From assembly GCA_964494885.1 (NCBI GenBank), contig CAZBTH010000006.1, positions 1 through 55,933 of the forward strand: a DNA stretch of 55,933 nucleotides, written 5' to 3'. The notes below the pieces were generated by a model. The model saw nothing but the letters and a program-made list of their open reading frames with translations. It had not been told where the DNA came from and did not search any database. This stretch comes from an uncultured Gammaproteobacteria bacterium (lineage in GTDB: Bacteria > Patescibacteriota > Microgenomatia > UBA8517). Of the stretch, positions 26,738-55,808 are shown piece after piece; the first letter of the stretch is position 1; every line of letters starts with the position of its first letter. The position numbers and the translations under genes were made by a program.

Positions 26738-27850
26738 ATGGGCGATCATAAACATACTAAACAGTTTGATGCAGGTGCATATCGGTCGACAGTTAGAGCG
26801 ATGCGTGCCGCTAACGAGGACGTATTCGCAGAGGCACAAAAGGTTCAAGATGAAACCGGCAGGCTTCACCCCAACGTTGACATTCAGGGTAAACCATCTC
26901 GGTTTAGCCACAACGCTTTGGAGCCAGGGGATGATGGCAAGTTTGTTTTGAGTCAGGGGATCTCCCTGCCGATCCTGAGTGAGTTTGATACTACGGGTAG
27001 CACGGCTCATTGGTTGGAGGACTTTTTCCACACAGCCGAGAGGCAATATATGCTCTTGGATGGGGTGCGAACTCGTTACAACCCTCAGTTGTCAACCGGG
27101 GCTGTTTGTGACACCTACAATGTTCGTCAGAGTGGAATCCCCGTTGTTCAGTGTTCGCAATTTGAATCGAACAACGAAAGCGCGAATCAGGTTCGTTTGA
27201 TCCTTCCTGCCAGTATGGGCAACGATACTTCCACCGAAGACTATCAACTTGCGCTGTACTATGCCACGCTCATCAACGCTGACTTTTGGCAACTCTACAA
27301 GTTGAAAGGTTATCTTACCTTGGCACTTGACGAAATCGGCCGTGAACCTGTCACGAGATCAGATATCAAACAATATCTTGGTCAGGAAGGCGATTTTCCG
27401 GAATTGGATGTGAAAGGAATCAGCGAAAAGCTACTCGAACACTGGCATTTCTTTATTCTCCAGGTCCCTACAGGTGGTTATGGAGGAATGCTGAAAGAAA
27501 CCACTCAATGGTGGACGCGCCGTGTTGGACAGGGTCGGGTAATTCAGGTTGAAGAACCGCGGCTTTTGGCGGATGTTCGTGCGGCATTAATCTACGCAAC
27601 AGAAGCGGTCAAACCGACTTTCAAGGGTTATACCCAATTCATGAGAGCCGGTCGCGATATCAAGCTTAATGCGGCTGATCTCAATCTGGTTTGGCGCATG
27701 ATTCAGCCGGCTGAGGAACATTTCAGCGCCCAGGCAAACTTGCCGGGTTACGATGAAATTCCGCTTCCGGGCGACAAATTTGCTCACTACCGCCACGCAT
27801 GGCCGATTGACCATCCGCGCGCGAGTGAAAACGTTACACCCGTCAAGTAA
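26738..27850 (+). CDS. divergent vWA-domain protein
   Basis: MIDAS-like FDTTGS, GN...EDYQLALYYA, KGYL....DE motifs; SD aaggag. Confidence 0.7.
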   Translation: MGDHKHTKQFDAGAYRSTVRAMRAANEDVFAEAQKVQDETGRLHPNVDIQGKPSRFSHNALEPGDDGKFVLSQGISLPILSEFDTTGSTAHWLEDFFHTAERQYMLLDGVRTRYNPQLSTGAVCDTYNVRQSGIPVVQCSQFESNNESANQVRLILPASMGNDTSTEDYQLALYYATLINADFWQLYKLKGYLTLALDEIGREPVTRSDIKQYLGQEGDFPELDVKGISEKLLEHWHFFILQVPTGGYGGMLKETTQWWTRRVGQGRVIQVEEPRLLADVRAALIYATEAVKPTFKGYTQFMRAGRDIKLNAADLNLVWRMIQPAEEHFSAQANLPGYDEIPLPGDKFAHYRHAWPIDHPRASENVTPVK

Positions 27851-27888
27851 TCCTATTTCAAAACATAAAGATATGAAGGAGAAACAAA

Positions 27889-28887
27889 ATGAACGATGAA
27901 CTGAAAGCTGAACTTAAAAGTCTTGGTTTGACAGACGAACAGATTACCGCGATCGGGGAAAACCTTGGTGTGGTCTCCCGTGAGGACATGACGTTCGTTA
28001 CTGTCGAAATGCTGACGGAACTCAAGCTGAAGCCGATTGCGGCTGCCAAAGTGGTCCGTCATTTCAAGACCTCCGATGTCGCAACCACCGCGCCACTCGG
28101 CGAGAAGCCTTCCAAGGCAGACGTCGAGTCCTACGCCAAGAACATTGGGATGGATTCAGGAATGCTTATGGCATTCATGTTCGCGAACGCAGGCAGTGGT
28201 GCCGGGCTTGAAATGGACCTGAGTTCATTTATGCCTCTGGGCCCCATTGTGGCAGGCTATAGCCCCAAGCGCCGCGACATGAGCCTCATGGTCATGGGCC
28301 AGATCGAACGCCGCCTGGAAACTCCCATTGTTATCATCAACGCCGACGGCTCCGTAAATGCTGCCCTGACCGAAAAGTACATCCTCTCCCTGGAGGAAGG
28401 CTTTGATCCGGCAGAGGACGCTGTTTTCTACGATGAAGATGGCTCACCCTACGAGGTGGTTCGCGTTGGTGTGGATGCCCAGGGCATTTACGACGCCGAC
28501 CCGATTGACTCAACCCGTGCGCTTCAGCAAAACGGAATGGGCATCGGCCGCATCAACTGGCACAGTGTGCCTTTGGAGGTGCGTCAGGTGGCCTATTTCG
28601 CGACCCGCTCCGGCGAACTTTCGGCTGGTGATGAATCGAAGCTTCAGTGGCTTCGCACGAACATCAAGCCCGAAACCAAACGACTGGACCTGCGTAGCGA
28701 GTTCCCCAAAGCGATCGGCATGTTCAATGAAGCCAACCGCACGGGCTCTCTGCCTACACTGCGCGTTACGCTTGGTCGTGGCCCCCGCCGCAAGGAAGTT
28801 ATGCCTCGGCGCCGGCTCAATAGTGGTCCTCGTGACCTGTCCGGTCTCAAACGCATCGTTGGCGATCCCGGCGATCCCGATCAGTAA
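27889..28887 (+). CDS. hypothetical protein with N-terminal SAM/HhH-like helical domain
   Basis: LKSLGL...LGV....D...VT.EMLTELKLKPIAA.K pattern; strong SD. Confidence 0.75.
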   Translation: MNDELKAELKSLGLTDEQITAIGENLGVVSREDMTFVTVEMLTELKLKPIAAAKVVRHFKTSDVATTAPLGEKPSKADVESYAKNIGMDSGMLMAFMFANAGSGAGLEMDLSSFMPLGPIVAGYSPKRRDMSLMVMGQIERRLETPIVIINADGSVNAALTEKYILSLEEGFDPAEDAVFYDEDGSPYEVVRVGVDAQGIYDADPIDSTRALQQNGMGIGRINWHSVPLEVRQVAYFATRSGELSAGDESKLQWLRTNIKPETKRLDLRSEFPKAIGMFNEANRTGSLPTLRVTLGRGPRRKEVMPRRRLNSGPRDLSGLKRIVGDPGDPDQ

Positions 28888-28900
28888 TACTCTTCACCTC

Positions 28901-28991
28901 GCTCACTAAAGTGAGCAAACGAGCAGATTGAGCTTACGCTCCGGTTTGCGGGAGAATTTATTTTTTTAAATTCCCCGCAAACCGCTGCTCG
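28901..28991 (+). other. structured RNA: hairpin plus three-way junction
   Basis: GCTCACT/AGTGAGC; CGAGCAG/CTGCTCG enclosing GAGC/GCTC and CGGTTTGCGGG/CCCGCAAACCG stems. Confidence 0.7.
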
Positions 28992-29061
28992 AAACCTATA
29001 TGGATTAAATCCACACTGACGAGTTCTGTTTAAACTCAGTTTAAAAAAGAACGAAAGGTTT
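28992..29061 (+). ncRNA. type III hammerhead ribozyme
   Basis: Stem III AAACCT/AGGTTT, CUA cleavage site (after 28998), stem I TATGGAT/ATCCACA, CUGACGA core, stem II GTTCT/AGAAC, GAAA. Confidence 0.85.
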
Positions 29062-30501
29062 ATGAAAGAAAATGAAAAACATTTTGGAATTGTTAACGGT
29101 ATCGGAATTGGAGAAGAAACAAAAGGTAATACCGTTCAAGCATTGGTTCGTGAGTTAAACGCCCACACTGTCTGGCGATCCGGTAGTTGGGTGGGAGGGC
29201 ACCATATAACTCACGATGATGACCGTGAAGCTGTACTCAATCACTTCGGGGCGGGGGTGTTTGAGGGTGCAGATACATACCTAAAACACATGGTGGTTAA
29301 CCCTGTGGTACTTTTTCAGGAAGCCCTGAGACTTGAGAGTCTGGGTATCCTAAGCCCACTTCAACGTATAAAAATTGATGAAAGTTGTATTGCTTCAACA
29401 CCATTTCATAGCGCAATAAGCCGAGCCAGGGAAATTCTTCGTGGAGAAAACAAGAAAGGTACCATTGGACAGGGTGTTGGTGAGGCCATTAAAGATTCTA
29501 TTGAATCCGAACTTACTGTCAGGGCTGGAGAATTTTCGGACAGGCAAATTATCCTCATGAAAGTAGAAAACATCAGATTGGCAAAACTTAAAATAGTCGA
29601 GCAATTAATTGCCGATCATAAAGGTTCAGTGCCGGAGGAGGTCTATGCCGAGGTAGAAGTGTTGAAAGACAATGATTTAGTTGGGGTTGTGGTTGATAGC
29701 TTTCAATACATTTCAAGCCTGGTTAAAGTGGTTGATAGTCGCTATTTAAATACATTGTTGAGTAGGGGTGGCTCAATTGTAAATGAAGTTTCGCATGGGG
29801 CTCTCCATCATCCAAGATATGGATTTTTACCTCACATTACCCAAATAGATCCGACTTCCCAGGACGTTTTAGCTACGGTTAGGGCCAATAATTATAATGG
29901 CAAAATTATGCGTATCGGAGTAGTCAGAAGTTATCTGACCAGACATGGCGCGGGGCCACTAGTGAGCTTTGATCAAAAGTTAACAGACTCTCTTATATCA
30001 GTAGAAAAAGACAATAACGGGGCAAATGAATGGCTGGGCGCGTTTAGAATTGGGTATTTCGATGTTGTTGCACTGAGATATGCATTATCAATAAGTGGTG
30101 GAAGCAAGGCGTTTGGTGGAATATTTGTGAGTTATTTGGATATTCTTTCCAAGAGAAAAAATTGGCCAGTTGTTGAAGCTTATGAGTACGATGGCAAAGA
30201 AAACGGTTTGGATGATTTCTTTATTATTGAAGGTAGTAAAATCACAGGGATTAAGCTTCACCCCGATATGAATAAAAGTGAACACACGGCTCATCAAATT
30301 CAACTAACAAAACTCCTAAATGAGTGTTCTCCTATCACCACCACCTTGACTCCGACGGAAGAAAAAACACTTGAGCAAGTATTCTTACGATATGTTGAAA
30401 ATAATCTTGGTGTGCCTGTTATTGGAACCGGTTACGGACCTAAAGTAACGGACAGGCATTTTATCCCTCAGTGGCAAAATAATTTAAGACAAGTCGGGTA
30501 A
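29062..30501 (+). CDS. divergent adenylosuccinate synthetase (PurA)-like protein
   Basis: GEETKG P-loop, GHH, GTIGQGVG, YLTRHGAGP, RIGYFD, LDIL, GYGP motifs. Confidence 0.85.
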   Translation: MKENEKHFGIVNGIGIGEETKGNTVQALVRELNAHTVWRSGSWVGGHHITHDDDREAVLNHFGAGVFEGADTYLKHMVVNPVVLFQEALRLESLGILSPLQRIKIDESCIASTPFHSAISRAREILRGENKKGTIGQGVGEAIKDSIESELTVRAGEFSDRQIILMKVENIRLAKLKIVEQLIADHKGSVPEEVYAEVEVLKDNDLVGVVVDSFQYISSLVKVVDSRYLNTLLSRGGSIVNEVSHGALHHPRYGFLPHITQIDPTSQDVLATVRANNYNGKIMRIGVVRSYLTRHGAGPLVSFDQKLTDSLISVEKDNNGANEWLGAFRIGYFDVVALRYALSISGGSKAFGGIFVSYLDILSKRKNWPVVEAYEYDGKENGLDDFFIIEGSKITGIKLHPDMNKSEHTAHQIQLTKLLNECSPITTTLTPTEEKTLEQVFLRYVENNLGVPVIGTGYGPKVTDRHFIPQWQNNLRQVG

Positions 30502-32322
30502 AAAGACCCTGCTTAAGAATAATTTTGTAGCCACCCTTCTATAGCCAGGATCCCAATAATCGCTTTTCCAGTCTATTAAATCTGAGTTTTTTGTATTTAG
30601 CCTGACGATACGTGGGTAAAATTTTCTATATCCCTTATGCATTAATCGATACTGTAGGACATCAAGCTCCAACTGTCCGAGAAGTTGACCTCTAATTTCT
30701 TGTTTTCTTTCCTCGTCATAAGGCAAATATAGATATTTTGTAAGAGTGTCACTGCGAATCTTCTTAAAATCAAGGCCGTGTCCTATCCAAATTCCACCCA
30801 TAAGAAAGTGGTTCTGATTATCTCCAACAATGGTTCTGGTAATTTCCTTAGGTACCTTAAATCCAAATTTTTCATTTTCCTGTGTTACCCAAAACTCAAG
30901 GAATTTGTGAATTTTGGCAAGTTCTGGGAAATCTTTGCCTAAAATTTCCAGGGCTTTTTGTCTATCTTCAAACTTTGCTTCAGGTCTAAAGAATATTGCC
31001 GCGTCAAAATCAGCGTCCGAATCAGCATAAAGTTTTATGCGTGATCCAAACAGCAAGAAACTGGGATATAGAATTTTTGATAGAAGCGGGTGATTTTCTA
31101 TCTTTTTTGCGGCATTTGATAAAATTTCTGTTTCTTCGGATATATACTTATTGTCGAAGATGTCAGAAGAGGTTAAATCTGTTAAATTTATTTTGAGTTT
31201 TTGTAAGAATTCCTTTTCAACTATTCCAAATCTGACCCATCTGTTTAAACCTCCGATCACGCAATTCTTTACTTTTGGATCATTCAAGGCAAATATAGCC
31301 TGAACCATGTCTTTAATGTCCAAAGCAAATTCTTTTGCTTTTTTAGGATTGGTTTTAGCAAGGAATTCTCCGGTTTCTATAACTCCCAGTACAACCACTT
31401 CGGGCCTGCCTTTATTGGCTAGTTCGTGTGGATCTAGGCCAGCAACAATCTTTTTTGACAATACTTCTGCCTCTTTTTCGTTTGTTGATTCCTCCGCTAG
31501 CGATCTTAACCACGCAGCTCTATGCGTACTTATTTTTGTCGAAGTAGGATCGTCCCAATATTTTTCTCTCGTGGTCGAAGTGTTTGTCATTTTCCCAAAT
31601 TTTTTCTCAATTACAGCATTGATTTTACCTAAATAGTTCTTATCAATAAGGCCCCTATCGATCGAGACAATTGCTCCTTCAGCCACGGATTTTAGAAATA
31701 GCTTATTTTTTATTGATTCTAGGAGCGTGTAAATATCCCTTTCTGTAATGATTCCTAAAGCAATTAGCTCTGGGGTAAGATGTCCTGCTTTGCTGATTCT
31801 TTCAGGTTCAGGCAGTCCTGGTTCTAATATGTCCCCGTCTACGAAATTTGCTCTAGGTTCGTGTTGAAAGAGAAGCTCTATCCAATGTTTTCGGTATAAA
31901 TCTGCCAGCCTCTGACCTGAAGCGGACAAATGATCGGAGGGAGATTCGTGTTTATGTATGTTTGGCAGTATTTCGAAAGGCAGATAAAGAAGAATTCTTG
32001 CATTGTTTTCGTCCCGTTCCAGGAAATCAGATATGCCGCTCCATAATTCTGCCACATCAGATTCTGTTACCAGTCCTCTTTTCATAGCTTCCTCTATATC
32101 GAGTTCAGGATCTGGGGAGGTTTCAAATATACGATCGCAGAGGTTGTAAAGGTTTCTTCTTTCTTCAGCCTGTTCGATCACTTTTGAGTTTGAGACGACC
32201 TCTTTGGGTAGATTATGATTACCTTCTTTTCTGGCCATAAAGAGTTCGATAGAAATTGGGGGTAAAACATTGGGGGACATAGAGTCTCTCTCTATTTTTT
32301 TGTCAGGGTGAATTTTTTCCAT
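30484..32322 (-). CDS. large protein with a C-terminal Pol-beta-type nucleotidyltransferase domain
   Basis: LFGSRIKLYADSDADFDAAIF (GS...DxD) plus a downstream acidic residue. Confidence 0.65.
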   Translation of the reverse strand: MEKIHPDKKIERDSMSPNVLPPISIELFMARKEGNHNLPKEVVSNSKVIEQAEERRNLYNLCDRIFETSPDPELDIEEAMKRGLVTESDVAELWSGISDFLERDENNARILLYLPFEILPNIHKHESPSDHLSASGQRLADLYRKHWIELLFQHEPRANFVDGDILEPGLPEPERISKAGHLTPELIALGIITERDIYTLLESIKNKLFLKSVAEGAIVSIDRGLIDKNYLGKINAVIEKKFGKMTNTSTTREKYWDDPTSTKISTHRAAWLRSLAEESTNEKEAEVLSKKIVAGLDPHELANKGRPEVVVLGVIETGEFLAKTNPKKAKEFALDIKDMVQAIFALNDPKVKNCVIGGLNRWVRFGIVEKEFLQKLKINLTDLTSSDIFDNKYISEETEILSNAAKKIENHPLLSKILYPSFLLFGSRIKLYADSDADFDAAIFFRPEAKFEDRQKALEILGKDFPELAKIHKFLEFWVTQENEKFGFKVPKEITRTIVGDNQNHFLMGGIWIGHGLDFKKIRSDTLTKYLYLPYDEERKQEIRGQLLGQLELDVLQYRLMHKGYRKFYPRIVRLNTKNSDLIDWKSDYWDPGYRRVATKLFLSRVFLPDLS

Positions 32323-32577
32323 GGCCAGGGATTTTAACACAAACGAGGCCGAAAGTCAAGGCTATAGGTCTACTTTGATTATTTGTCCGATGAAGCCGGC
32401 TGGTTAACGCTTTTTTTGAAAAAATTCTATCGGGAGGCCCATAAAAGTGGTAAATTTAGCCTCGCTTGAGCCTTTTAACAACTTCGCGACCCCTTGATTT
32501 ACAGTCTCCATAATCTGTTCAGCAGTTTTTTCGAGGAATATACTCCTCTTACTCGAGTTTGCAACTCTCGCAAGAGA

Positions 32578-33099
32578 TTATATACTCGAAATTTTTGTTT
32601 GCTGGTGCAAACTCAAGTTTCTTGAGTATATGTGTGAGCTGTATTCGTTTGCTAGTAAAGCGTTTCTGTATTCTCCGGGCTTGTAGTAGTTGGTGTATCT
32701 CAAAATAAAGATTCCGTCATCTTCAAAATCTTTGGTGTTTTTAATATTTCCATTTGTCGTAAATATTGGTTTTTTGTTTTTCAATTCGTATGTGAAATAA
32801 GTTGTTGGAAAGTTTCTTCTATAGATTGTTATGGCTCCATCCGACTTAAGAACTGCGTCGCCATCGACTTGCGAGTGTGCTAGAAGCAATCCTGTCCTTT
32901 TTTCACGCAATAAGAACATTAAGTCGTCATGTTTTACCAGTCTTTTGAGTGTTTGATCTATAAATATTTGCCTGGCCAATTCAGCTTCATTCTTTTGTTT
33001 TTCTCTGTTGACATCTTCGCCGGTAGTCACGAATTTGGCATCAACAGGGATTGCTTTTAATTTAGATCTAAGGGCATCAAATTGTTGGTTAATTTCCAT
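32578..33099 (-). CDS. hypothetical protein (possibly truncated)
   Basis: Promoter TTGACT-17-TATTAT 6 nt before the ATG; frame stays open for about 57 codons past the stop. Confidence 0.55.
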   Translation of the reverse strand: MEINQQFDALRSKLKAIPVDAKFVTTGEDVNREKQKNEAELARQIFIDQTLKRLVKHDDLMFLLREKRTGLLLAHSQVDGDAVLKSDGAITIYRRNFPTTYFTYELKNKKPIFTTNGNIKNTKDFEDDGIFILRYTNYYKPGEYRNALLANEYSSHIYSRNLSLHQQTKISSI

Positions 33100-33224
33100 G
33101 CGGGCATAATACAGCATTTTCCCTCAAAAGTCAAGGCTATAGGCTACTATAAGCTTTGCTTATGAGGGTATTGTATAATGGCAAGTTCTCTTCTTTTGTG
33201 CCTAAAAAAGAGTACACTAAAGGT

Positions 33225-34154: not shown

Positions 34155-34238
34155 ATTCCGAAACGATAAAAAAATCATTCCGGTAATGAAACCGTACCTA
34201 CAAACCGGTATTTTAGTAAATTTGGTACAATAATTTTG

Positions 34239-34451: not shown

Positions 34452-34586
34452 TGTTGACCAATATCGATCAAGGACTACTTCTTTTCTACGCTGCTGGTGG
34501 AATTTTGGCCATTGCAGGAATTCTTCTTTACATTGCTTCTAAAAAATAAATCGCTTTCGAGGTATAATTAGGATCGAATCAAAAAT

Positions 34587-44717: not shown

Positions 44718-44720
44718 TAT

Positions 44721-44811: not shown

Positions 44812-45624
44812 GTGACAGACACTCAAATTGCATTATTTAGAAATAAAGGAATAAGAAAAACAATTTATAACGGAGATTGGTATTTTGTGATTATTGATAT
44901 TGTCTCCGCCCTTACCAATTCGGTTCAGCCCTCAGGATATATAAAGGATATGAGGAGACGTGATCCGGAGCTCTCTAAAGGGTGGGGGCAAATTGCCACC
45001 CCCCTTTTGATAAATACGTCAGGAGGCGCGCAAAAAATCAACTGCGCATCGACTGAGGGTGTGTTGAGAATTATTCAATCGATTCCGTCACCAAAAGCTG
45101 AACCAATGAAAAAGTGGCTGGCTAGGGTTGGGTTTGAAAGAATCCAGGAAATTGAAGACCCGGAACTTGCAACAAGACGTACAAGATTTCTATACAAAGC
45201 AAAAGGTTATCCTGATTCCTGGATCGAAAAAAGAATGCGTGGAATAGCAATTCGTGAAGAACTTACTGATGAGTGGCAAAAACGGGGGGCGGAAAAAGAT
45301 CTGGATTATAAAATTTTAACCGCAGAAATTTCGAAAGCAACTTTTGGCATAACTCCAACACAATACAAAAAATTAAAAGGATTAAAACGCCAAAATCTTA
45401 GGGATCACATGGATGATTTTGAATTAATTTTTACTATGCTTGGGGAACGTTCGACAACAGAAATCCACAAAGTGGAAAATTCAAAAGGGACGAAAAAGCT
45501 CAAAAAAGACGCGGAAGAAGGTGGTGAGATCGCCGGAGTTGCAAGAAGAAAATTGGAAAAGAAACTAAAAAAGTCGATAGTAACGAAACAAAACTTTCTT
45601 TTAAAAAGGAAACATATAGAATAG
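44812..45624 (+). CDS. BRO-N domain (phage antirepressor-like) protein
   Basis: IRK....WYF.IIDIV, RIIQSIPSPKAEP.K.WLA.VG.ER, LRDHM motifs. Confidence 0.85.
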   Translation: MTDTQIALFRNKGIRKTIYNGDWYFVIIDIVSALTNSVQPSGYIKDMRRRDPELSKGWGQIATPLLINTSGGAQKINCASTEGVLRIIQSIPSPKAEPMKKWLARVGFERIQEIEDPELATRRTRFLYKAKGYPDSWIEKRMRGIAIREELTDEWQKRGAEKDLDYKILTAEISKATFGITPTQYKKLKGLKRQNLRDHMDDFELIFTMLGERSTTEIHKVENSKGTKKLKKDAEEGGEIAGVARRKLEKKLKKSIVTKQNFLLKRKHIE

Positions 45625-46929: not shown

Positions 46930-47000
46930 ATATCAAATTTCTGGAGCCCTTTTCAAACTCCTTTAAATTTCCAAAAATTCAAACTATACTTCAACTAAAT

Positions 47001-48574: not shown

Positions 48575-48583
48575 AATGGCCTC

Positions 48584-49666: not shown

Positions 49667-49688
49667 CGGAAAGTTATCTTTGATTTAC

Positions 49689-49746
49689 GTCATTCCCGAC
49701 TCGATCGGGAATCTATTTAAATAGTCCCCGCATTCGCGAGGATGAC
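49689..49746. repeat. REP-like double-hairpin element, copy 3
   Basis: gtcattcccgactcgatcgggaatcta...tccccgcattcgcgaggatgac. Confidence 0.8.
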
Positions 49747-49833
49747 ACATTTTGTTTTTTTTCATCTATCGCTTGACATCTTGCGATATATACGTTTATA
49801 CTGGCGCACTTACGACAGCAGTCGCAAAAAAAT

Positions 49834-50517
49834 ATGGAAGACGGTCAAAATACAGAAAATAGTCAGGTTCAAGCCCCACCTCAGGAAACTTTATCTCCGA
49901 ATGTATCCTTTCCCACCGTAGGCCAACCCCAAAAGGGTGGCGGAGCCAAAACTCTTTTGGTTATAGGTATTTTGGTATTGGTGGCAATTTTGGGTTTTGT
50001 GATTTATAAAAGCGCAACCAGTAAAGGTGAGGCTTTAGCCGAGCCAACTCCGATCGAAAACCAAATCTTAGGAGAAGAGAATGTAAACGTGACCACACCA
50101 GCTCCAACAGCCACTGCCAAACCCATCGATAAAACTCAGGTTTCTATTCAGGTTCAGAATGGCACAGGCATAACAGGAGAAGCTGCATATCTCCAGACTG
50201 TTCTTAAAGATTTGGGATATACAGACGTTAAGGTGGGTAACGCTGGGGATCAGACAGCTTCGGTCACAGTTGTTACTTTTAGTAGCTCTCTTGATTCGGC
50301 AGCCGTCAGCGAGCTAACTTTAAAACTCAATTCTATTTATCAAAATGTCACTGTCAAAACCTCAAGCACACAGACATTCGATGTGGTAGTTGTTACAGGA
50401 CTAAGGAAAGGTGCAACAGTAAAACCTTCGGCTACTCCTTCTCCTAAAGCGAGTGCCACCCCCAGTGCTTCCCCGAGCGCTACACCCAAAGCTTCCCCAA
50501 CCTCGACCCCTATTTAG
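49834..50517 (+). CDS. LytR C-terminal domain membrane protein
   Basis: VQNGTGITGEA, VGNA, DVVVVTG motifs; TM helix and P/S/T-rich tail. Confidence 0.82.
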   Translation: MEDGQNTENSQVQAPPQETLSPNVSFPTVGQPQKGGGAKTLLVIGILVLVAILGFVIYKSATSKGEALAEPTPIENQILGEENVNVTTPAPTATAKPIDKTQVSIQVQNGTGITGEAAYLQTVLKDLGYTDVKVGNAGDQTASVTVVTFSSSLDSAAVSELTLKLNSIYQNVTVKTSSTQTFDVVVVTGLRKGATVKPSATPSPKASATPSASPSATPKASPTSTPI

Positions 50518-50673
50518 TTTTTCACACAGTTCCACAACCCCCTTTGCTCAAGCTACGGTGGGTCAAAGGCTTGTGAAAAACCGCGTGAAATAAGCTTTGG
50601 AAGCGAAGTCCTCCGAAGCAAAATTTCTTGCGAAGGAGGATCTATTATTAACTTGTGATAATATTATTTTGTC

Positions 50674-51144
50674 ATGCAGCAATTTTCTCAAGTCTTAAGT
50701 TTTATCAGCCGAAGTTTTATATTGAATCTTGGCAAGTTTTCTATCCCTGTAACTTATTGGGAGGTGGGCGCAATAATTTTTCTTATCTTCCTTTTGATTT
50801 TAAGCATGGCCCAGTTCAGGCGCCATTATGTGGATTGGGGTTTCAAAGGTGCCCTCTTTGGCATATTTTTTGGCTTCCTTTTGGCCTTACTTCTGGAAGG
50901 ATTTTTGATTGTCGGGGGCAAAACCGCCTTAACTGAGTTTTTAGGTTGGAAAAACGCCCCGAAGCCCTTGCAGGTAGCCTTGGATGCCGGCAAAACCCAG
51001 CTTATTCAGGTATTGGGAGTAGATACTGCAATTCCTTCATCTTTGGCTAAAGATAGTTCTACATTCCAAGGCGCCTTGGAAAATATTCAGACTCTAAGCC
51101 CCGCGGACCTTAAAAAGGTCAAAAGCCTCATTTGCCAACCTTGA
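50674..51144 (+). CDS. membrane hypothetical protein
   Basis: Two TM helices. Confidence 0.7.
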   Translation: MQQFSQVLSFISRSFILNLGKFSIPVTYWEVGAIIFLIFLLILSMAQFRRHYVDWGFKGALFGIFFGFLLALLLEGFLIVGGKTALTEFLGWKNAPKPLQVALDAGKTQLIQVLGVDTAIPSSLAKDSSTFQGALENIQTLSPADLKKVKSLICQP

Positions 51145-51175
51145 CAAGATTGTATTGGTAAGATACAATCTTTGT

Positions 51176-51535
51176 ATGAACAAGACGATTAACATTTCTC
51201 TTCCAAAATCTATGTATGAGGACGCCCGCGAGCTTGTCAAAGAGAAAAGATTTGCGTCTATAAGTGAGCTTATTAGGCACGCCTTGAGGGGTGTTTTATA
51301 CCCTGGTGGCCTGACTGTAAACGGTTTTACGCCTGAGTTTGAAGATATGGTTTTGGAAGCCGAAAAAGAACCTTTGGAAAATGATTTAGTTTGGGAAACT
51401 GAGGCTGATATTGACAATTATTTTCGAAAGTTAAAGAATGAAATTATCCATGATAAAAATAAAAAGGGTAGGAGAATTCAATCTTCAGTTAAACGAGTTG
51501 GTCCACAAAAACGTTCGGATTTTGCCTCTTATTAA
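51176..51535 (+). CDS. ribbon-helix-helix (CopG/ParD-like) antitoxin
   Basis: TINISLP...FASISELIRHALR. Confidence 0.78.
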   Translation: MNKTINISLPKSMYEDARELVKEKRFASISELIRHALRGVLYPGGLTVNGFTPEFEDMVLEAEKEPLENDLVWETEADIDNYFRKLKNEIIHDKNKKGRRIQSSVKRVGPQKRSDFASY

Positions 51536-51728
51536 CCAGCGAATTCGATTTTTTCAAAATAATTCGGAAGATACAAGGCTCCGAAATCATGCTTTGACGA
51601 AAAGAATGAAAGGCAAGTATGCCTTTAGCATAACCGACGACATCAGAATTATTTATAAATATCTTGGTAAAAATACGGTCCGTTTTTTGGCAATTGGTAG
51701 CCATAAAGAGGTGTACGGTCGTTTTTAG
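51450..51728 (+). CDS. RelE/YafQ-family mRNA interferase toxin
   Basis: LRNHAL, FSITDDIRIIY, IGSHKEVY motifs. Confidence 0.87.
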   Translation: MIKIKRVGEFNLQLNELVHKNVRILPLINQRIRFFQNNSEDTRLRNHALTKRMKGKYAFSITDDIRIIYKYLGKNTVRFLAIGSHKEVYGRF

Positions 51729-51789
51729 CCTCAATTTTTGTCTCCATTCTTGATTCAAGATTCGAGATTCCAGTTCTATCCCATAGCCC

Positions 51790-51817
51790 TTGACTTTTTG
51801 TTTTTTTCTGGTATACT
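51790..51817 (+). promoter_or_regulatory. sigma70 promoter of the 52029..55662 operon
   Basis: TTGACT-16 bp-TATACT followed by a ~210-nt hairpin-rich leader. Confidence 0.6.
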
Positions 51818-52028
51818 TGCCTCACGTCTTTTGACTGGGTGCCAGTCATTTTTTTTGCGACTGGGTTTTCAGTGTAAAAAGTGGACATTAACATCTTCAA
51901 GAATATTAACAAAAAGGTAAAACTTTTTTCTCCTAAATTGATGCCGATGCAAGAGACTACCTAAATCTTTTAACTAGGCGGTTTCTTCTAATCGGCATCA
52001 ACCATTCAATTTGAAAGGAGATTTTGAT

Positions 52029-53996
52029 ATGAAGAATCGAAAGAAGAATTTAGTTGTCGTTTTGTTGGCAATTGGTGTCTTAATGCTTGTTTCACTGGCC
52101 TGCGGCTCTACCGCACCATCACAAACAGCACCCCCAATTGCTGGCACAAACACGGGGGATCAGGTGCACTACACTGTGCAAGAGCTCTACAGCGAGGCAC
52201 AGCAAATCACTGAGACTAACGTTACGAGTCGCATGCACATGCGTGCCTGGCTTTGGTTCTTTGCGTTGGTTTTGTTTGTGATCGATGTGGGTATTATTTT
52301 TGGAGTCGAGGGAGCCGGGTGGTGGTCCGCCGCTGTTGTGGTGGCAATTCTGCTTGGTTCACTTGGCGCTGTAATAAACAATTCTCAAATCCCCGGAAAA
52401 GTTGACCGAATCGGCCATGATCTGGCGGATAAGGCGATCACTCAAGGTGTTGATTTGGCTCAGCGCGCGCAGGCTACGAACTATCAGTATATTCATGCGG
52501 TGATCTCACAGATCGGTGTCGAATCGGAACCTTGTCAACGGACAGTGAATCATCATGACTTCTGTTCAAGCAACACGAACTACTATACCCATCGCGAGAT
52601 CAACTCGCATCAAGTGTGTACGACTTCGACAGACTCGGATGGTAATACGACTGAAAGTTGTCATGAGGAGCACGACGACGAGTATACCCCGTGGTTTACT
52701 AACGTTGTGCGGTATTACATCATACCCGACACTCGCGCCAAGTATTTGAGTGAACAGATTTATCACCAGCTTTGTCTGGCTGACTCTGGCGCTTTTGAAC
52801 CCTGCACGAAGGACGAGAACGGCAACGTCAACGACAAGCGGAAACCAGTTGTTTATGCGAACACGGATTGGCGTGCCCCGCAGAATGCTATGAATCACCT
52901 CTATTGTGAAACAGGCATCTTCGGAACGTCCTGCGAGCGACCTCGTGATTCTTATAACGAGCACGTCCCTGACGCGTACATGACAGTGAAGAAGGCCAAA
53001 GAAAATGGAGGCCCGGTTGTGGATGCTACGTTTGTAGGACCCTATTTCAACTGGGGTTTTGCGGCCGACAGTCCACTTTACGATGTCTACGACGGTGACT
53101 ACAACAACCTCAAAGGCGTGATGAACTTACCTGGTCCCAGTGGTGTCAAATTCACGATCAATGACGCATACGGCAACCCTGCGACTTTACCCACCCAGCT
53201 GGTTGCTACGGACGGCGACTTGGCGATCGGTTTCAATCCGATCTTCGTCATCGGCAGTTGTATTTCCCAGGAACAACTTCAGGGTTATGCAGAATATGCC
53301 ATGACTGTCCAAGGGGACTTCGGTCCTACAAAGCAGGGTTCGCTTCGCTGGTTCCTGGTTTGCGATTCGATTGTTACTCGTCTCGGCGGAATGCCCTACA
53401 CTGTTTCTGCAGTGAAGGCGTACCTCCGTGACTCGGGCGTGTGGAGCTTGTTTTCAATGCCCAAAAACCTCGTGATTTCTGTGACCTCCATCAGCGATGA
53501 CGGAACACGGATTACCGGCCGCGGTCTGGAAACAGGCATGCCTACCGGCAATGATGTACTCATCAGTCACGTAACGGCAAGTGTTCGTGCGGGCGATAAT
53601 TTGTTCTTGACCAAGGAAAACCTCTTTGGTTCATTCTCGGCAAGTTATGTCGCTTCGCAGGCGGACAAATTCCAATACCAGTTTTCTGACCTGACTCAGG
53701 CCGGCAGTGTTGTGGGGCTTCTCTACGAGACAGATCCCAACTACACCCCTCCCGACCCATCGGATCCTGCTTGTAATCAAGCCAAGGCTGACCATGTTGG
53801 CTTTGTGCGGTACTCGACTTGCAACACCGATTACCTCAAGACGACCATCGAGGTCAACGAGGACGGTCGGTTCCTGATCATGAACATGGTTACGGCCGGG
53901 GCAATTGCTTCTACACCCGTTTGGGGTGCGTGGGTTGTTCTCGTCTTAGCCATAATTTGTCTGTTCCTCGCCGGTTCGGTGCGGAGTCAGATGTAG
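52029..53996 (+). CDS. Cys-rich lipoprotein-signal membrane protein
   Basis: Lipobox SLAC, two TM helices, large Cys-rich soluble region, C-terminal TM; SD gaaaggag. Confidence 0.8.
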   Translation: MKNRKKNLVVVLLAIGVLMLVSLACGSTAPSQTAPPIAGTNTGDQVHYTVQELYSEAQQITETNVTSRMHMRAWLWFFALVLFVIDVGIIFGVEGAGWWSAAVVVAILLGSLGAVINNSQIPGKVDRIGHDLADKAITQGVDLAQRAQATNYQYIHAVISQIGVESEPCQRTVNHHDFCSSNTNYYTHREINSHQVCTTSTDSDGNTTESCHEEHDDEYTPWFTNVVRYYIIPDTRAKYLSEQIYHQLCLADSGAFEPCTKDENGNVNDKRKPVVYANTDWRAPQNAMNHLYCETGIFGTSCERPRDSYNEHVPDAYMTVKKAKENGGPVVDATFVGPYFNWGFAADSPLYDVYDGDYNNLKGVMNLPGPSGVKFTINDAYGNPATLPTQLVATDGDLAIGFNPIFVIGSCISQEQLQGYAEYAMTVQGDFGPTKQGSLRWFLVCDSIVTRLGGMPYTVSAVKAYLRDSGVWSLFSMPKNLVISVTSISDDGTRITGRGLETGMPTGNDVLISHVTASVRAGDNLFLTKENLFGSFSASYVASQADKFQYQFSDLTQAGSVVGLLYETDPNYTPPDPSDPACNQAKADHVGFVRYSTCNTDYLKTTIEVNEDGRFLIMNMVTAGAIASTPVWGAWVVLVLAIICLFLAGSVRSQM

Positions 53997-54023
53997 ATAC
54001 ATTTCAACAAAGGAGAAAAACCA

Positions 54024-54944
54024 ATGAACGTCACTAAAAGGATCGTTTCCCTGTTTTTGCTAACAATGTACGTTCTATCCGCGTGCGGAACCAAGGCTTC
54101 TCAAGACACGGTCCCGGCTCTGCCGAAACTTGATCCTGTTGCGATTTTGTCCCAGGCGCGGACCTACTACAAGGGTGGCGTTGATCGTGAGACCAACATC
54201 ACCGTTCTGTGGCGAAAGTATGAACTTTCGATGAACACGTTCCGTCTCGGTGCGAAGGATTTGATCGGTGCGGCCAACGCATGCTCTACGAGCGTCGCCT
54301 CGACTGAGTCAACGATCGGCAATGCAGTTACCGGTAATATGGATGGCGATGCCATTTTCTCGGCGCTTGTCACGAACAGCGTCTCCGGCGAACAGGCCAC
54401 GACCGAATGTACGCAGATTTTCCGTCAGCTTGCCGATTACATCGTCGCTAACCGCGCCGCTGTACAGAATGCCAATCTCATGGCGTTTGAGGCCGCTACG
54501 GACTACATGAACTACACCAGTTCCTTCCCAGAGGTCGATTTTATGAATGATCTCATGCAAACCTACGGCGATACCACGCTGGTCTACCAGAAATTGGCAG
54601 ACAATGGCGTCGGTGTTTCCGATTGGAGCTGGCTCCCGACAGCGAACCTGTGGGTCAGCCATCAGGATAAGAACTTGTGTCAGTACTACATCAGTGGCGA
54701 GTTTATGCAGAACATCTCTTACTCGTCCAAACTGAAGTTCACCGGACATGAATCAGCGCTTGCCCGTCTTTACGAGAGCACCTGGAATCCTGCGGCCAAC
54801 GGTGGCAACGGCGAATGTCGTATGACCCGCTATGCGGCCCTTGAGTACATGACCCGCAGTATTGTGGGCGCTGATACTCAGCAGATCATCGAATCTGGTC
54901 AGGACCAGGGACTTTTCCCTGCCACTCCGACAGCGACGCCTTAA
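54024..54944 (+). CDS. lipoprotein, possibly LemA-like helical bundle
   Basis: Lipobox LSAC; helical region resembling LemA-like proteins; SD aaggag. Confidence 0.75.
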   Translation: MNVTKRIVSLFLLTMYVLSACGTKASQDTVPALPKLDPVAILSQARTYYKGGVDRETNITVLWRKYELSMNTFRLGAKDLIGAANACSTSVASTESTIGNAVTGNMDGDAIFSALVTNSVSGEQATTECTQIFRQLADYIVANRAAVQNANLMAFEAATDYMNYTSSFPEVDFMNDLMQTYGDTTLVYQKLADNGVGVSDWSWLPTANLWVSHQDKNLCQYYISGEFMQNISYSSKLKFTGHESALARLYESTWNPAANGGNGECRMTRYAALEYMTRSIVGADTQQIIESGQDQGLFPATPTATP

Positions 54945-54957
54945 TTGGAGAGACGAG

Positions 54958-55662
54958 ATGAACATTTTGAATTTCGTTTTCTACCCTGTTTTGGTAATCC
55001 TGTTCAGCCTGGCCGCGGCGTTTTCGTTTCTGAGCAAGAACAACAAAGACGCTCTGCTTTCGTCCAATCGTGACGGTCGCGATCTTCTGGTAATTGGCCT
55101 CGGGCTTGCGCTCTTGGGCGTGCTTGTCTCATTCCTGGACTACACTGCGGCACGTATGCTCGTAGGTATTGGTTTTACCTTTGTCGCCTTCGGAACCGTC
55201 ATCCTGGTTGACGACTATTACACCGATCGGTTATTCCAACCAGTTTTTGGTGTTGTGTATACCGTTTTGGCGTTTCTGGTCTACCGCGCAGGTTCTCTGG
55301 GCACTCAGGTTTACAATCCTCACGCGCTTGTTACCCTCGCTGTTCCCGTTGCCATGGCCACCCTGTTGGCGACCCTCTCGGCTCTCGCATTTGCGTCGGC
55401 TGATTTCAAGGATCGTCTCGATCAGCAAAATGGCGGATGGCTTTTCATCGTCCTGGGTTTGGCGGCTGCGATACTTTCGCCCTTTACTAATAACCCGGCT
55501 CTGATCATTGCCACAGCCAGTATCGGCGGCCTACTCTTTACTTTGGGCCTCTTGATCGCGGTTGACCAGAAGGATGCTCTCGGCGCTTTGAACAAGGCAA
55601 AGATGCCTGTATACGTGCTGATTGCAGTGCTTTTGCTCGTAGGCGCTCGCCTGTTTTTCTAG
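54958..55662 (+). CDS. polytopic membrane protein
   Basis: About 8 TM helices with internal repetition; SD ggag. Confidence 0.8.
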   Translation: MNILNFVFYPVLVILFSLAAAFSFLSKNNKDALLSSNRDGRDLLVIGLGLALLGVLVSFLDYTAARMLVGIGFTFVAFGTVILVDDYYTDRLFQPVFGVVYTVLAFLVYRAGSLGTQVYNPHALVTLAVPVAMATLLATLSALAFASADFKDRLDQQNGGWLFIVLGLAAAILSPFTNNPALIIATASIGGLLFTLGLLIAVDQKDALGALNKAKMPVYVLIAVLLLVGARLFF

Positions 55663-55700
55663 GCTCTGGCCAAATATTCTTGAAGTTAGGTTCTAAAATA

Positions 55701-55754
55701 GGGATCGGAAGGTCAAATGTTGGTTAACTCCAGCCTCTTTGATCTTCCGATCCC
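55701..55754 (+). other. long stable hairpin
   Basis: GGGATCGGAAGGTCAAA pairs with TTTGATCTTCCGATCCC; no U-tract. Confidence 0.8.
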
Positions 55755-55756
55755 TT

Positions 55757-55808
55757 GCAATCTGCAAATAAATTTTTGCACTGATGAGTCCAATAAGGAC
55801 GAAATTGC
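55757..55808 (+). ncRNA. type III hammerhead ribozyme
   Basis: Stem III GCAAT/ATTGC, AUC cleavage site (after 55762), stem I TGCAAA/TTTGCA, CUGAUGA core, stem II GTCC-AATAA-GGAC, GAAA. Confidence 0.9.

What the first reader, a model, noticed from the sequence alone, without database searches (positions are those of the whole stretch)
26738..55808. Recurrent module: GC-rich SD-led gene block, strong hairpin, type III hammerhead
The two visibly GC-rich gene blocks (26738..28887 and 52029..55662) are unrelated in protein sequence. Both have long leaders and strong SD sites in a window of mostly leaderless genes. Both are followed by a long hairpin without a U-tract, immediately 5' of a hammerhead. 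Cleavage would leave the mRNA ending 7-8 nt after a protective stem. The two ribozymes differ in all stems, so this is conserved architecture and not a recent duplication. Inference: ribozyme-based mRNA 3'-end formation or operon segmentation for highly expressed or acquired operons.
Basis: partly seen in the sequence, partly recalled or inferred. Interest (0 to 1): 0.8.

Follow-up and report, generated by a model that had tools for sequence, protein, structure and literature searches.

The report
Hammerhead ribozymes capping accessory operons
Two small self-cutting RNA motifs (type III hammerhead ribozymes) sit right after a strong hairpin at the ends of two GC-rich accessory gene blocks in a tiny-genome bacterium, a layout that recurs in its relatives and probably trims these messages, an idea already proposed for bacterial hammerheads.

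Summary
Both GC-rich blocks, their Shine-Dalgarno sites, long leaders, 3' hairpins and both type III hammerheads are at the stated places. Cleavage sites are after 28998 and 55762.

Both hammerheads score below Rfam's cut-off. A descriptor finds 3 in the genome against 0.08-0.4 expected. A family model built without HH1 finds it at E 3.6e-7. A sister genome has a hammerhead at the same slot.

The layout recurs. The model hits 26 of 125 family genomes and 20 of 151 sampled across the phylum. DNA upstream of the sites is GC-elevated (19 of 33, against 3 of 32 downstream). Upstream genes are SD-led (15 of 28, against 13 of 206 controls).

Relatives with the same cassettes keep the hairpin but lack the hammerhead. 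The hairpin is therefore the constant 3' element and the ribozyme a facultative add-on.

The cassettes are patchy, yet sit in the same slots in another genus, so "recently acquired" is not shown.

Most likely function: cis-cleavage that sets a hairpin-protected 3' end and uncouples downstream RNA. This is untested, and was proposed for bacterial hammerheads in 2011.

Earlier notes of this scan report the same hairpin-plus-hammerhead layout in other Patescibacteria genomes.

The parts
26520..26547 (+). Promoter-like site TTGACT-16-TATAAT ahead of block 1
   Evidence: 11 of 12 matches. The region is 91% identical in G002.
26548..26737 (+). Long leader of block 1 (about 185 nt). It holds a hairpin plus U-rich tract at 26610-26648, a boxA-like GTACTTTAACAAG near 26650, and SD AAGGAG at 26726-26731.
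Evidence: Sequence. Conserved in G002 although the cargo differs.
26738..27850 (+). Block 1 gene a: 370-aa cytoplasmic protein with a vWA-like fold, GC 0.49
   Evidence: No Pfam match. AlphaFold2 model pLDDT 88.4. Foldseek matches vWA/integrin I-like domains at E about 1e-6, TM about 0.4. 32 homologues; the few that carry a name include Daviesbacteria, Paceibacterota and one Pseudomonadota MAG.
27889..28887 (+). Block 1 gene b: 332-aa protein of unknown family, GC 0.57, SD GAAGGAGA
   Evidence: No Pfam, PHROG, PADLOC or NCBIfam match. Found in 2 of 125 family genomes.
28888..28991 (+). Structured 3' UTR: small hairpin 28901-28916, then a domain closed by CGAGCAG/CUGCUCG (28920-28991) that holds the long hairpin 28942-28984. 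No U-tract.
   Evidence: z -9.75. The outer helix and long hairpin are kept in G077, which has no hammerhead.
28992..29061 (+). HH1, type III hammerhead. Stem III AAACC(U)/(A)GGUUU; cleavage after A28998; stem I with one A.C mismatch; extended stem II; core CUGACGA...GAAA.
   Evidence: Found by the family model R1, built without it, at 33.8 bits, E 3.6e-7. A hammerhead sits in the same slot in G002.
29062..30501 (+). Divergent adenylosuccinate-synthetase-like gene. Its ATG directly follows stem III of HH1.
   Evidence: Pfam PF00709, E 4.7e-40. Below the NCBIfam equivalog cut-offs.
51790..51817 (+). Promoter-like site TTGACT-16-TATACT (TG-extended) ahead of block 2
   Evidence: 92-93% identical in G001 and G002.
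51832..51856 (+). Terminator-like hairpin plus U8 just after the presumed start of the block 2 leader (possible attenuator)
   Evidence: Kept in G002 with changed stem letters.
52029..53996 (+). Block 2 gene a: 655-aa predicted lipoprotein with a C-terminal membrane helix, GC 0.51, SD AAAGGAGA
   Evidence: Found in 5 of 125 family genomes.
54024..54944 (+). Block 2 gene b: 306-aa predicted lipoprotein, GC 0.53, SD AAAGGAGA
54955..55662 (+). Block 2 gene c: 235-aa multi-pass membrane protein
55700..55755 (+). 18-bp hairpin in the 3' UTR of block 2, no U-tract
   Evidence: z -6.1. Kept with compensatory changes in G001 and G014.
55757..55808 (+). HH2, type III hammerhead. Stem III GCAA(U)/(A)UUGC; cleavage after C55762; stem I 6 bp; stem II GUCC/GGAC; core CUGAUGA...GAAA.
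   Evidence: 39.2 bits; 70.3 bits with R1, of which it is a seed.
55814..55852 (-). Intrinsic terminator of the convergent gene on the minus strand (hairpin 55822-55852, then U-tract read on the minus strand)
   Evidence: Sequence. Conserved in G001 and G014. Contig C18 continues the locus with a minus-strand gene.

Best explanation
Both elements are genuine type III hammerhead self-cleaving ribozymes. They belong to a family that is widespread but sporadic in Patescibacteria (the genome is Woesebacteria-like according to an earlier scan note).

Each is transcribed as the last part of an accessory operon that is SD-led and GC-rich. Each sits directly after the strong hairpin domain of that operon's 3' UTR.

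Proposed mechanism (inferred). Co-transcriptional self-cleavage cuts the RNA 7 nt after the hairpin. The operon mRNA then ends in a hairpin plus a short tail with a 2',3'-cyclic phosphate, which would resist 3' exonucleases. Everything downstream begins with a 5'-OH and is physically uncoupled. For HH1 the downstream RNA is the purA-like message. For HH2 it is read-through antisense to a convergent gene. With RNase J encoded in the genome, that downstream RNA is probably degraded or handled separately.

Shown here: the motif, its fold, its covariation, its recurrence and its placement.

Inferred: cleavage in vivo, the protective role of the hairpin, and the fate of the downstream RNA.

The hairpin is the older, constant 3' element of the cassettes. 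The ribozyme is an optional add-on gained in some lineages.
For: Motif beyond chance. A descriptor finds exactly 3 sites in the genome, both strands. Forty order-2 Markov genomes give a mean of 0.375 (loose rules) or 0.075 (the stem lengths all three real sites meet).

Model R1, built from 7 sequences without HH1, finds HH1 at 33.8 bits, E 3.6e-7 in 440 kb.

G002, of the same genus, has a 56.7-bit hammerhead in the same slot, 6 nt before its purA-like ATG and after a different GC-rich cargo.

Covariation. On the 36 matches aligned to R1, 95.9% of cells pair and 170 cells carry double changes; 0 of 500 shuffles reach this. A15.1-U16.1 is kept in 35 of 36 and G10.1-C11.1 in 34 of 36 (the alignment is fitted to the model).

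HH1 shares loop 1 (UUAAA) and an extended stem II with four other matches.

In-context MFE folds form both the hairpin and the hammerhead, 0-1 nt apart.

Placement. At 33 family sites, the upstream 1.5 kb exceeds local GC by at least 0.04 in 19 of 33, against 3 of 32 downstream. A strong SD stands at the first start of the upstream ORF in 15 of 28, against 13 of 206 control genes (Fisher OR 17, p 4e-9). A helix of at least 6 bp ends within 5 nt of stem III in 20 of 33, against 395 of 970 random positions (p 0.017).

A 45-nt hairpin-plus-hammerhead composite is conserved with covariation in 8 sequences from 6 genomes, including this genome's contig C16 upstream of rpsO (12 pairs with double changes).

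The common denominator is the upstream gene. By my ORF listing, some sites are followed by a same-strand gene within 2-25 nt and others by a convergent gene within 0-17 nt.

RNase J and Rho score above their cut-offs; an RNase Y-like match scores 451 against a cut-off of 454.

Published precedent. Bacterial hammerheads flank genes, and three tandem arrangements from C. scindens, A. caulinodans and A. tumefaciens cleaved about 2-kb polycistronic RNAs during in vitro transcription (PMC3088659, passages). A role in 3' UTR and polycistronic processing has been suggested but remains unresolved (PMC6765202, passages).
Against: No cleavage or expression data were available.

Both motifs are below Rfam's gathering score (39.2 and 18.9, against 48.5).

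HH1 and HH2 lack the loop pair shared by 17 of 36 family matches (loop 1 UGUGUN, loop 2 AAAA). Fast cleavage at cellular Mg2+ is therefore uncertain. HH1 has an A.C mismatch in stem I.

The ribozyme is dispensable. G001 (block 2 at 89% identity), G014 (block 2) and G077 (block 1) keep the hairpin but have no hammerhead, even with filters off.

Only 26 of 125 family genomes have any match.

The hairpin-adjacency enrichment is modest (p 0.017). For helices of at least 10 bp it is 10 of 33 against 19.5% (p 0.09). The sites are related, so all p-values overstate.

Rho is present, so a substitute for termination is not obviously needed.

The descriptor's tolerance of one stem I mismatch was set after seeing HH1.
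Confidence: 0.55

Rival explanations
1. The hammerheads are small mobile or phage-derived passengers. They land in AU-rich spacers at the ends of transcription units and persist without a host function. The link with GC-rich, SD-led genes would then reflect where such insertions are tolerated, or a shared mobile origin.
For: Sporadic distribution: 26 of 125 family genomes and 20 of 151 phylum genomes.

Presence or absence differs between close relatives at identical slots. The G000 hammerhead replaces a spacer that is alike in G001 and G014.

Near-identical stem I and loop 1 occur at unrelated loci in different genomes, for example this genome's C16 site and G002's purA slot.

The core-plus-stem-II word CTGAWGAGTCCNAAAGGACGAAA occurs in 83 viral contig stretches.

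Bacterial hammerheads are often near integrases and prophages (PMC3088659).
Against: None of the 54 window ORFs scanned against Pfam hits an integrase, transposase or phage structural family.

The cargo proteins have no match in phage records or viral contigs.

The cores are kept and the stems covary, which implies selection for the fold.

Stem III differs between copies, so no fixed element ends are visible.

Placement is directional: always downstream of, and on the same strand as, an SD-led gene.
Confidence: 0.2
2. The ribozymes serve the downstream gene. They create a defined 5'-OH end, or free the start region, for purA-like, rpsO, prfB-like and rho-like genes. They would then be 5' UTR processing devices, not 3' end formers.
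For: The 3' strand of HH1's stem III ends 1 nt before the purA-like ATG. In G002 the gap is 6 nt.

Other sites lie 12-76 nt before same-strand genes: G124, G089 (a prfB-like N-terminus, read by eye), G014a, G077a, and C16 before rpsO.

After cleavage, the short AU-rich stem III would open and expose GAAAGG plus the AUG (inference).
Against: HH2 has no same-strand gene downstream. A convergent terminator starts 6 nt after it.

At least six other sites are followed within 0-60 nt by a convergent ORF: G014b, G077b, G114, G127, G113b, G131.

The features that recur, namely GC, SD and the hairpin, are all upstream.
Confidence: 0.15
3. One or both motifs are inactive look-alikes: chance matches or decayed copies with no cleavage.
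For: Rfam scores are below the cut-off.

Variant cores exist in the family. CUUGAAGA occurs in G014a and G077a, and CCGAUGA in G002 and G025; 7 of 36 are non-canonical.

HH1 has a stem I mismatch.
Against: Both window motifs have fully canonical cores, and their MFE folds form the junction.

Three motifs are found against 0.075-0.375 expected.

HH1 is recovered independently by R1, and G002 has a hammerhead in the same slot.
Confidence: 0.07

Closest known systems
Type III hammerhead ribozyme (Rfam RF00008, clan CL00010)
   Same: Three helices around the core CUGANGA / GAAA. A15.1-U16.1 and G10.1-C11.1 pairs. Cleavage after H17. Open stem III.
   Different: Minimal, AU-rich stems. Scores are below Rfam's gathering threshold. 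Chromosomal location in a Patescibacteria genome. A strong hairpin abuts stem III on the 5' side.
Clustered hammerheads flanking genes in bacterial prophage regions (Perreault et al. 2011, PMC3088659; passages read)
   Same: Intergenic ribozymes on the coding strand, proposed to cut long transcripts into operon-length or gene-length mRNAs.
   Different: Here there is a single ribozyme at the 3' edge of each block, not a flanking pair. No integrase or phage genes lie nearby. The host genome is largely SD-less, yet the ribozymes follow SD-led, GC-rich genes. A hairpin partner is conserved.
Ribozymes acting in bacterial 3' UTRs (twister reporter work, as summarised in PMC6765202; passages read)
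   Same: A self-cleaving RNA downstream of a coding region that can change mRNA fate.
   Different: A different ribozyme class. That work used engineered reporters, whereas here the placement is natural. No twister-P1 match was found in this genome.
glmS ribozyme with RNase J1 decay of the 5'-OH product in Bacillus subtilis (recalled, not read here)
   Same: Cleavage leaves a 5'-OH RNA in an organism that encodes RNase J. This gives a route to removing the downstream RNA.
   Different: glmS lies in a 5' UTR and is metabolite-dependent. No ligand or regulation is indicated here.
RiboJ synthetic insulator, a hammerhead plus a hairpin (recalled; an earlier scan note also cites it)
   Same: A hammerhead paired with a neighbouring hairpin to uncouple adjacent genetic parts.
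   Different: RiboJ is engineered and sits in a 5' UTR with its hairpin downstream. Here the pairing is natural, in a 3' UTR, with the hairpin upstream.

Membership tests
Hammerhead ribozyme, type III | Conserved core C3 U4 G5 A6 N7 G8 A9 ... G12 A13 A14, with H17 (not G) at the cleavage site | tested here: met
   HH1 has CUGACGA...GAAA with A17. HH2 has CUGAUGA...GAAA with C17.
Hammerhead ribozyme, type III | Three helices with A15.1-U16.1 and G10.1-C11.1 closing pairs, and stem III open-ended | tested here: met
   The MFE folds form the junction both alone and in context. The descriptor gives stems I/II/III of 6/5/6 and 6/4/5 bp. Covariation across 36 family matches.
Hammerhead ribozyme, type III | Score at or above Rfam RF00008's gathering threshold (48.5 bits) | tested here: not met
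   39.2 bits for HH2 and 18.9 bits for HH1. No family genome reaches the cut-off. The lineage-specific model R1 gives 70.3 bits (HH2, a seed) and 33.8 bits (HH1, not a seed).
Hammerhead ribozyme, type III | Loop-loop or other tertiary contact between stems I and II | tested here: inconclusive
   17 of 36 family matches share loop 1 UGUGUN and loop 2 AAAA. HH2 has neither. HH1 belongs to a second subclass with loop 1 UUAAA and an extended stem II. No 3D test was possible.
Hammerhead ribozyme, type III | Site-specific self-cleavage that gives 2',3'-cyclic phosphate and 5'-OH ends | not testable with these tools
   No RNA holder was listed for this DNA. A biochemical assay is needed.
Prophage-type clustered hammerheads (Perreault 2011) | Several ribozymes flanking genes within prophage or integrase-bearing regions | tested here: not met
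   One ribozyme per block. None of the 54 ORFs scanned hits an integrase or phage family. The cargo has no phage or viral contig relatives.
Intrinsic (Rho-independent) terminator | GC-rich hairpin followed directly by a U-tract on the transcribed strand | tested here: not met
   Both hairpins are followed by stem III of the hammerhead, not by a U run. The scan reports no terminator-like site there on the + strand.
Integron-type gene cassette junction (attC) | Integron integrase nearby, plus imperfect inverted repeats with conserved R'/R'' core sites at each cassette end | tested here: not met
   No integrase among the ORFs scanned. The hairpins differ in sequence and change by compensatory substitutions, as RNA stems do. 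The core sites were judged by eye only.

The most novel reading that the evidence does not exclude
In these largely leaderless, SD-poor genomes, the hairpin plus hammerhead may act as a ribozyme-based end-of-operon device for a special class of operons. These operons are SD-led and GC-rich, and are read from strong promoters through long leaders that carry attenuator-like hairpins. Cleavage would make the stable 3' end. The 5'-OH product would give RNase J an entry point to chase and remove read-through RNA, and perhaps the polymerase, torpedo-style. This would protect the neighbouring leaderless or convergent genes. A bolder corollary: the ribozyme spreads as a roughly 50-70 nt unit whose stem III is matched to the few bases that follow each cassette hairpin. 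In HH-less relatives, those bases (AAAC..., GCAAU) already stand at both loci.
Probability: 0.12. Interest if true: 0.8.

Novelty: new variant of a known kind. Interest (0 to 1): 0.5.

Why it matters
What bacterial hammerheads do is still an open question; the 2019 review PMC6765202 says so in the passages read.

This lineage offers a clean natural test bed:
- 1-3 ribozymes per 1-Mb genome;
- a directional link to SD-led, GC-rich accessory operons in a genome that otherwise rarely uses SD sites;
- a hairpin partner that covaries;
- sister genomes that carry the same cassette and hairpin with and without the ribozyme.

Comparing mRNA ends and half-lives across these natural plus/minus pairs would test directly whether such ribozymes form 3' ends or insulate neighbouring genes.

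Three searches of the held library found no paper on hammerheads in these bacteria. Lists in the supplements of hammerhead surveys could not be seen.

Tried and rejected
RNA evidence: no RNA holder was listed for 52000-55933.

Cargo identity:
- No Pfam, PADLOC or NCBIfam match for the five block proteins. PHROGs gave only two weak matches: phrog_2971 (unknown function) for gene 1a and phrog_1242 (E 0.002) for gene 2c.
- tblastn of block 1 genes a and b against phages found nothing.
- Viral contig scans with the gene 1a alignment and with gene 2a found no relative.
- The protein atlas gave no usable hit for the 332-aa protein.
- The PDB profile search gave only E of 0.09 or worse.

Other ribozyme classes in this genome: Hammerhead_II and twister-P1 gave none. 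Hammerhead_1 gave one 18-bit match at 7502-7541, taken as chance.

Leaders as mobile modules: rejected. They recur only at the same slots within the genus. The two leaders are not alike.

boxA-type antitermination: leader 1 has GTACTTTAACAAG, which matches 10 of 12 letters of the E. coli consensus as I recall it. Nothing similar lies in the 800 nt before this genome's 16S gene. Inconclusive, not claimed.

The weak R1 match at C18:16-80 is not a ribozyme. C18 bases 53-152 repeat window 55783-55882 exactly, so it is an assembly overlap.

Recent horizontal acquisition of the blocks: not supported as stated. They sit in the same slots in genus g13, at 72.5-74% identity against 64-70% for the flanks.

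Cassette boundary at the cleavage site: megablast homology to G001 stops at 55761. This is because G000 carries the ribozyme where G001 and G014 have an AU-rich spacer. It is not evidence of recombination at that site.

One search timed out and was rerun.

Full report
WHAT THE WINDOW IS. The window is the whole contig C6 of a 1.14-Mb, 34-contig genome that is 95.6% complete. Mean GC of 1-kb windows is 0.399. The genes around the finding are ordinary chromosomal ones, including nadABC, greA, lysS, secA, tgt and an NrtR-type regulator. None of the 54 ORFs scanned hits an integrase or phage structural family.

CHECK OF THE OBSERVATION.

- GC. The two blocks stand out. Bins read 0.486 and 0.564, and 0.491, 0.526 and 0.519. 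Genome-wide, block 1 has the highest 1-kb peak (0.567) and block 2 is the longest island at or above 0.48.
- Proteins. The five encoded proteins are unrelated to one another.
- Translation signals. Most genes in the window have a TATAAT-like box a few bases before the ATG and no Shine-Dalgarno site. All five block genes have AGGAG/GGAGA-type sites.
- Leaders. Promoter-like sites at 26520-26547 and 51790-51817 would give leaders of about 185 and 205 nt.
- Hairpins. Each block is followed by a very stable structure without a U-tract: 28888-28998 at -51.6 kcal/mol (z -9.75) and 55663-55762 at -39.8 kcal/mol (z -6.1).
- Hammerheads. Stem III of a type III hammerhead starts 0-1 nt after each structure. 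HH1 is 28992-29061, cut after A28998. HH2 is 55757-55808, cut after C55762. The tail left on the upstream RNA is 7 nt in both.
- One refinement. At HH1, the helix that abuts the ribozyme is a 7-bp helix (28920-28991) that closes a two-hairpin domain.

ARE THE HAMMERHEADS MORE THAN CHANCE? Rfam alone would not call them. HH2 scores 39.2 bits and HH1 18.9 bits, against a cut-off of 48.5. Four other lines settle it.

(1) A simple descriptor finds exactly three sites in the genome: the two here and one on contig C16. It requires the core, stems of at least 4 bp, and allows one mismatch in stem I. Forty order-2 Markov genomes give a mean of 0.375 sites. They give 0.075 at the stem lengths that all three real sites meet.

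(2) I built a covariance model (R1) from seven sequences, without HH1. It finds HH1 at 33.8 bits, E 3.6e-7 in 440 kb.

(3) G002, of the same genus, has a 56.7-bit hammerhead in the same slot. It sits after a different GC-rich cargo and 6 nt before its purA-like ATG. Its core reads CCGAUGA.

(4) The 36 matches aligned to R1 show strong covariation in all three stems. 95.9% of cells pair, 170 cells carry double changes, and 0 of 500 shuffles reach this. The hallmark pairs A15.1-U16.1 (35 of 36) and G10.1-C11.1 (34 of 36) are kept. The alignment is fitted to the model.

HH1 also shares its loop 1 (UUAAA) and extended stem II with four other matches.

HOW FAR THE LAYOUT RECURS. R1 matches 26 of 125 genomes of the family at E of 0.01 or better (36 matches). 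It matches 20 of 151 genomes drawn evenly from the phylum at E of 1e-4 or better. Both counts include this genome.

I analysed 33 family sites with wider context. I dropped the C18 overlap artefact and three sites that I had not fetched widely (G117:C46, G104, G025). I added HH1.

- GC. The upstream 1.5 kb exceeds local GC by at least 0.04 at 19 of 33 sites, against 3 of 32 downstream (mean +0.046 against -0.006).
- SD. At 28 sites an ORF ends within 400 nt upstream. That ORF has a strong SD at its first start in 15 of 28, against 13 of 206 control genes from the same loci (odds ratio 17, p 4e-9).
- Hairpin. A helix of at least 6 bp ends within 5 nt of stem III at 20 of 33 sites, against 395 of 970 random positions (p 0.017). 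For helices of at least 10 bp it is 10 of 33 against 19.5% (p 0.09).

The sites are related, so these p-values overstate. ORFs were called crudely.

One subfamily shows that the hairpin and ribozyme can evolve as a unit. A 45-nt hairpin (GGUGCU...AGCACC around an inner stem) directly joined to the hammerhead is conserved in 8 sequences from 6 genomes, in different gene contexts. One is this genome's C16 site, upstream of rpsO. It has 12 pairs with compensatory changes.

In 11 phylum-wide loci the same tendencies are seen, but more weakly.

WHAT THE BLOCKS ARE. Gene 1a folds as a vWA-like domain (pLDDT 88; Foldseek E about 1e-6, TM about 0.4). It has only 32 homologues. Most carry no name; the few named ones include Daviesbacteria, Paceibacterota and one Pseudomonadota MAG. 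Block 2 encodes two predicted lipoproteins and a membrane protein.

The cargo is patchy. Gene 2a occurs in 5 of 125 family genomes and gene 1b in 2 of 125. Within the genus, the same two slots hold different GC-rich cargo behind the same conserved promoter and leader (91-93% identity).

However, another genus carries block 1 (G077) and block 2 (G014) in the same slots. They are GC-rich there too, at 72.5-74% identity against 64-70% for the flanking genes. The blocks are therefore accessory cassettes at fixed slots. Recent foreign acquisition is not shown.

THE KEY COMPARATIVE RESULT. G001 carries block 2 at 89% identity. G014 carries block 2, and G077 carries block 1. All three keep the 3' UTR hairpin, with compensatory changes or a conserved outer helix. 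None has a hammerhead, even with all filters off.

In G001 and G014, an AU-rich spacer lies between the hairpin and the convergent terminator. By eye the two spacers look alike; the three-way alignment is too rough to show it. In G000 the ribozyme occupies that place. The hairpin is therefore the constant 3' element of the cassette, and the ribozyme is a facultative add-on, probably gained in the G000 lineage.

This also explains why megablast homology to G001 stops at 55761.

MECHANISM. Shown: motif, fold, covariation, strand and placement. Inferred: everything about function.

The most economical reading is cis-cleavage at the end of the operon transcript. The upstream mRNA would end in a strong hairpin plus 7 nt with a cyclic phosphate. 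The downstream RNA would start with a 5'-OH and be uncoupled.

The common denominator across sites is the upstream gene. Some sites are followed at 2-25 nt by a same-strand gene (HH1, G002, G124, G089). Others are followed at 0-17 nt by a convergent gene (G014b, G077b, G114, G127, G113b), and HH2 by a convergent terminator.

The genome encodes PNPase (read by eye on C16), RNase J and Rho above their cut-offs, and an RNase Y-like protein just below its cut-off. A 5'-OH product could therefore be removed as in the glmS/RNase J1 case, which I recall and did not read here.

The direct abutment of the hairpin on the short AU-rich stem III may also help the ribozyme fold and then release its 5' product. 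This too is inference.

Against a necessary role: the ribozyme is absent from close relatives with the same cassette. HH1 and HH2 lack the loop pair shared by 17 of 36 relatives. Rho is present.

COMPARISON WITH WHAT IS KNOWN. Perreault et al. 2011 found hundreds of bacterial hammerheads, many near integrases and prophages and often flanking genes. They showed cleavage of about 2-kb polycistronic RNAs during in vitro transcription for three tandem arrangements (C. scindens, A. caulinodans, A. tumefaciens). They proposed processing into operon-length or gene-length mRNAs (PMC3088659, passages). A 2019 review repeats that 3' UTR and polycistronic processing roles are suggested but unresolved (PMC6765202, passages).

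What is new relative to these texts:
- the host lineage;
- the directional link to SD-led, GC-rich accessory operons in an SD-poor genome;
- the hairpin partner that covaries;
- the natural plus/minus pairs.

Searches for hammerhead together with Patescibacteria, candidate phyla radiation or Microgenomates gave 0, 3 (none about ribozymes, by title and abstract) and 0 papers. Supplements were closed, so earlier catalogues may list such sequences. The core-plus-stem-II word of the family also occurs in 83 viral contig stretches, which fits the known phage link.

Earlier AI notes of this scan describe the same hairpin-plus-hammerhead layout in other Patescibacteria genomes. They include a hammerhead abutting a PurA-like start, and a GC-rich lipoprotein gene bounded by a hammerhead. 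They agree with my results, but they are not independent evidence.

VERDICT. These are real, canonical-core type III hammerheads. They form a lineage-typical variant in which a hairpin-plus-ribozyme caps accessory operons. Function is untested and the ribozyme is evidently dispensable.

Noticed in passing
G000 contig C16:9500-9612 (-), locus L013: A third hammerhead in this genome. It is joined to a conserved 45-nt hairpin (GGUGCU...AGCACC with an inner stem, and invariant GGG/CCC that could form a pseudoknot). It lies between a small membrane-protein gene and rpsO-pnp. The composite recurs in 6 genomes with covariation.
   Followed up: yes
window 55783-55933 and G000 contig C18:1-152: C18 bases 53-152 are identical to window 55783-55882, so C18 continues this locus with a convergent gene. 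The unique ends of both contigs carry the same 12-nt word in inverted orientation. This looks like an assembly fork or artefact placed inside HH2.
   Followed up: partly
window 51832-51856 and 26610-26648: Both block leaders carry a terminator-like hairpin with a U run soon after the presumed transcription start, and G002 keeps them. They may be attenuators. Leader 1 also has a boxA-like word near 26650.
   Followed up: partly
window 51155-51728: A ribbon-helix-helix and RelE-like toxin-antitoxin pair lies just upstream of the block 2 promoter. This stretch has no DNA match in G001.
   Followed up: no
loci L068 (G064), L061 (G061), L010 (G013), L060 (G102): A second group of hammerhead sites has no adjacent hairpin. 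Instead they have a long CU-rich tract just upstream. In G064 it reads CACCUCCUUUCU, like the 3' end of 16S rRNA (the anti-SD). Unexplained.
   Followed up: no
L011:2854-2909 (G014), L051:4574-4629 (G077), L023:6079-6133 (G002), L047 (G025): Natural core variants. CUUGAAGA (an extra U) occurs in the first copy of a tandem pair of small-membrane-protein cassettes. CCGAUGA (C at core position 4) occurs in two genomes. Their activity is unknown.
   Followed up: no
window, many gene starts (e.g. 8562, 11914, 17996, 20058, 21373, 23760, 40635): A TATAAT-like box lies 6-10 nt before the start codon and no SD is present, which is the pattern of leaderless mRNAs. TANNNT lies within -16..-4 for 84 of 206 control genes in the family loci.
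   Followed up: partly
window 28992-28996 and 55757-55761 compared with L177 and L017: At both loci, HH-less relatives have part or all of the 5' strand of stem III right after the hairpin. AAAC of AAACC is shared by G077, and all of GCAAU by G001. It is unclear how the ribozyme came to match it.
   Followed up: partly
G000 contig C14:21110-22663: The 16S rRNA gene starts here and runs off the contig. Model positions 9-546 span 1395 nt, which implies an insertion of about 850 nt (possibly an intron).
   Followed up: no
window 29062-30501: The adenylosuccinate-synthetase-like protein is very divergent: 479 aa, 110 bits against an equivalog cut-off of 402. It is syntenic in G002 and G077. It may not be a true PurA.
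   Followed up: no
window 11970-12042 (-), 44812-45624 (+): The tRNA gene is the only Rfam match above the cut-off in the window. Further along lies a Bro-N domain protein, a family often seen in phages and viruses.
   Followed up: no
L024 (G001:C4:265000-279000), 5174-9562 (-): In G001, the block 1 slot holds a different GC-elevated set of four ORFs. One is a 622-aa protein with a weak match to a Ser/Thr kinase family; the other three have no clear match (one has a faint nicotinamidase-like hit). The purA-like gene is absent from the locus.
   Followed up: no
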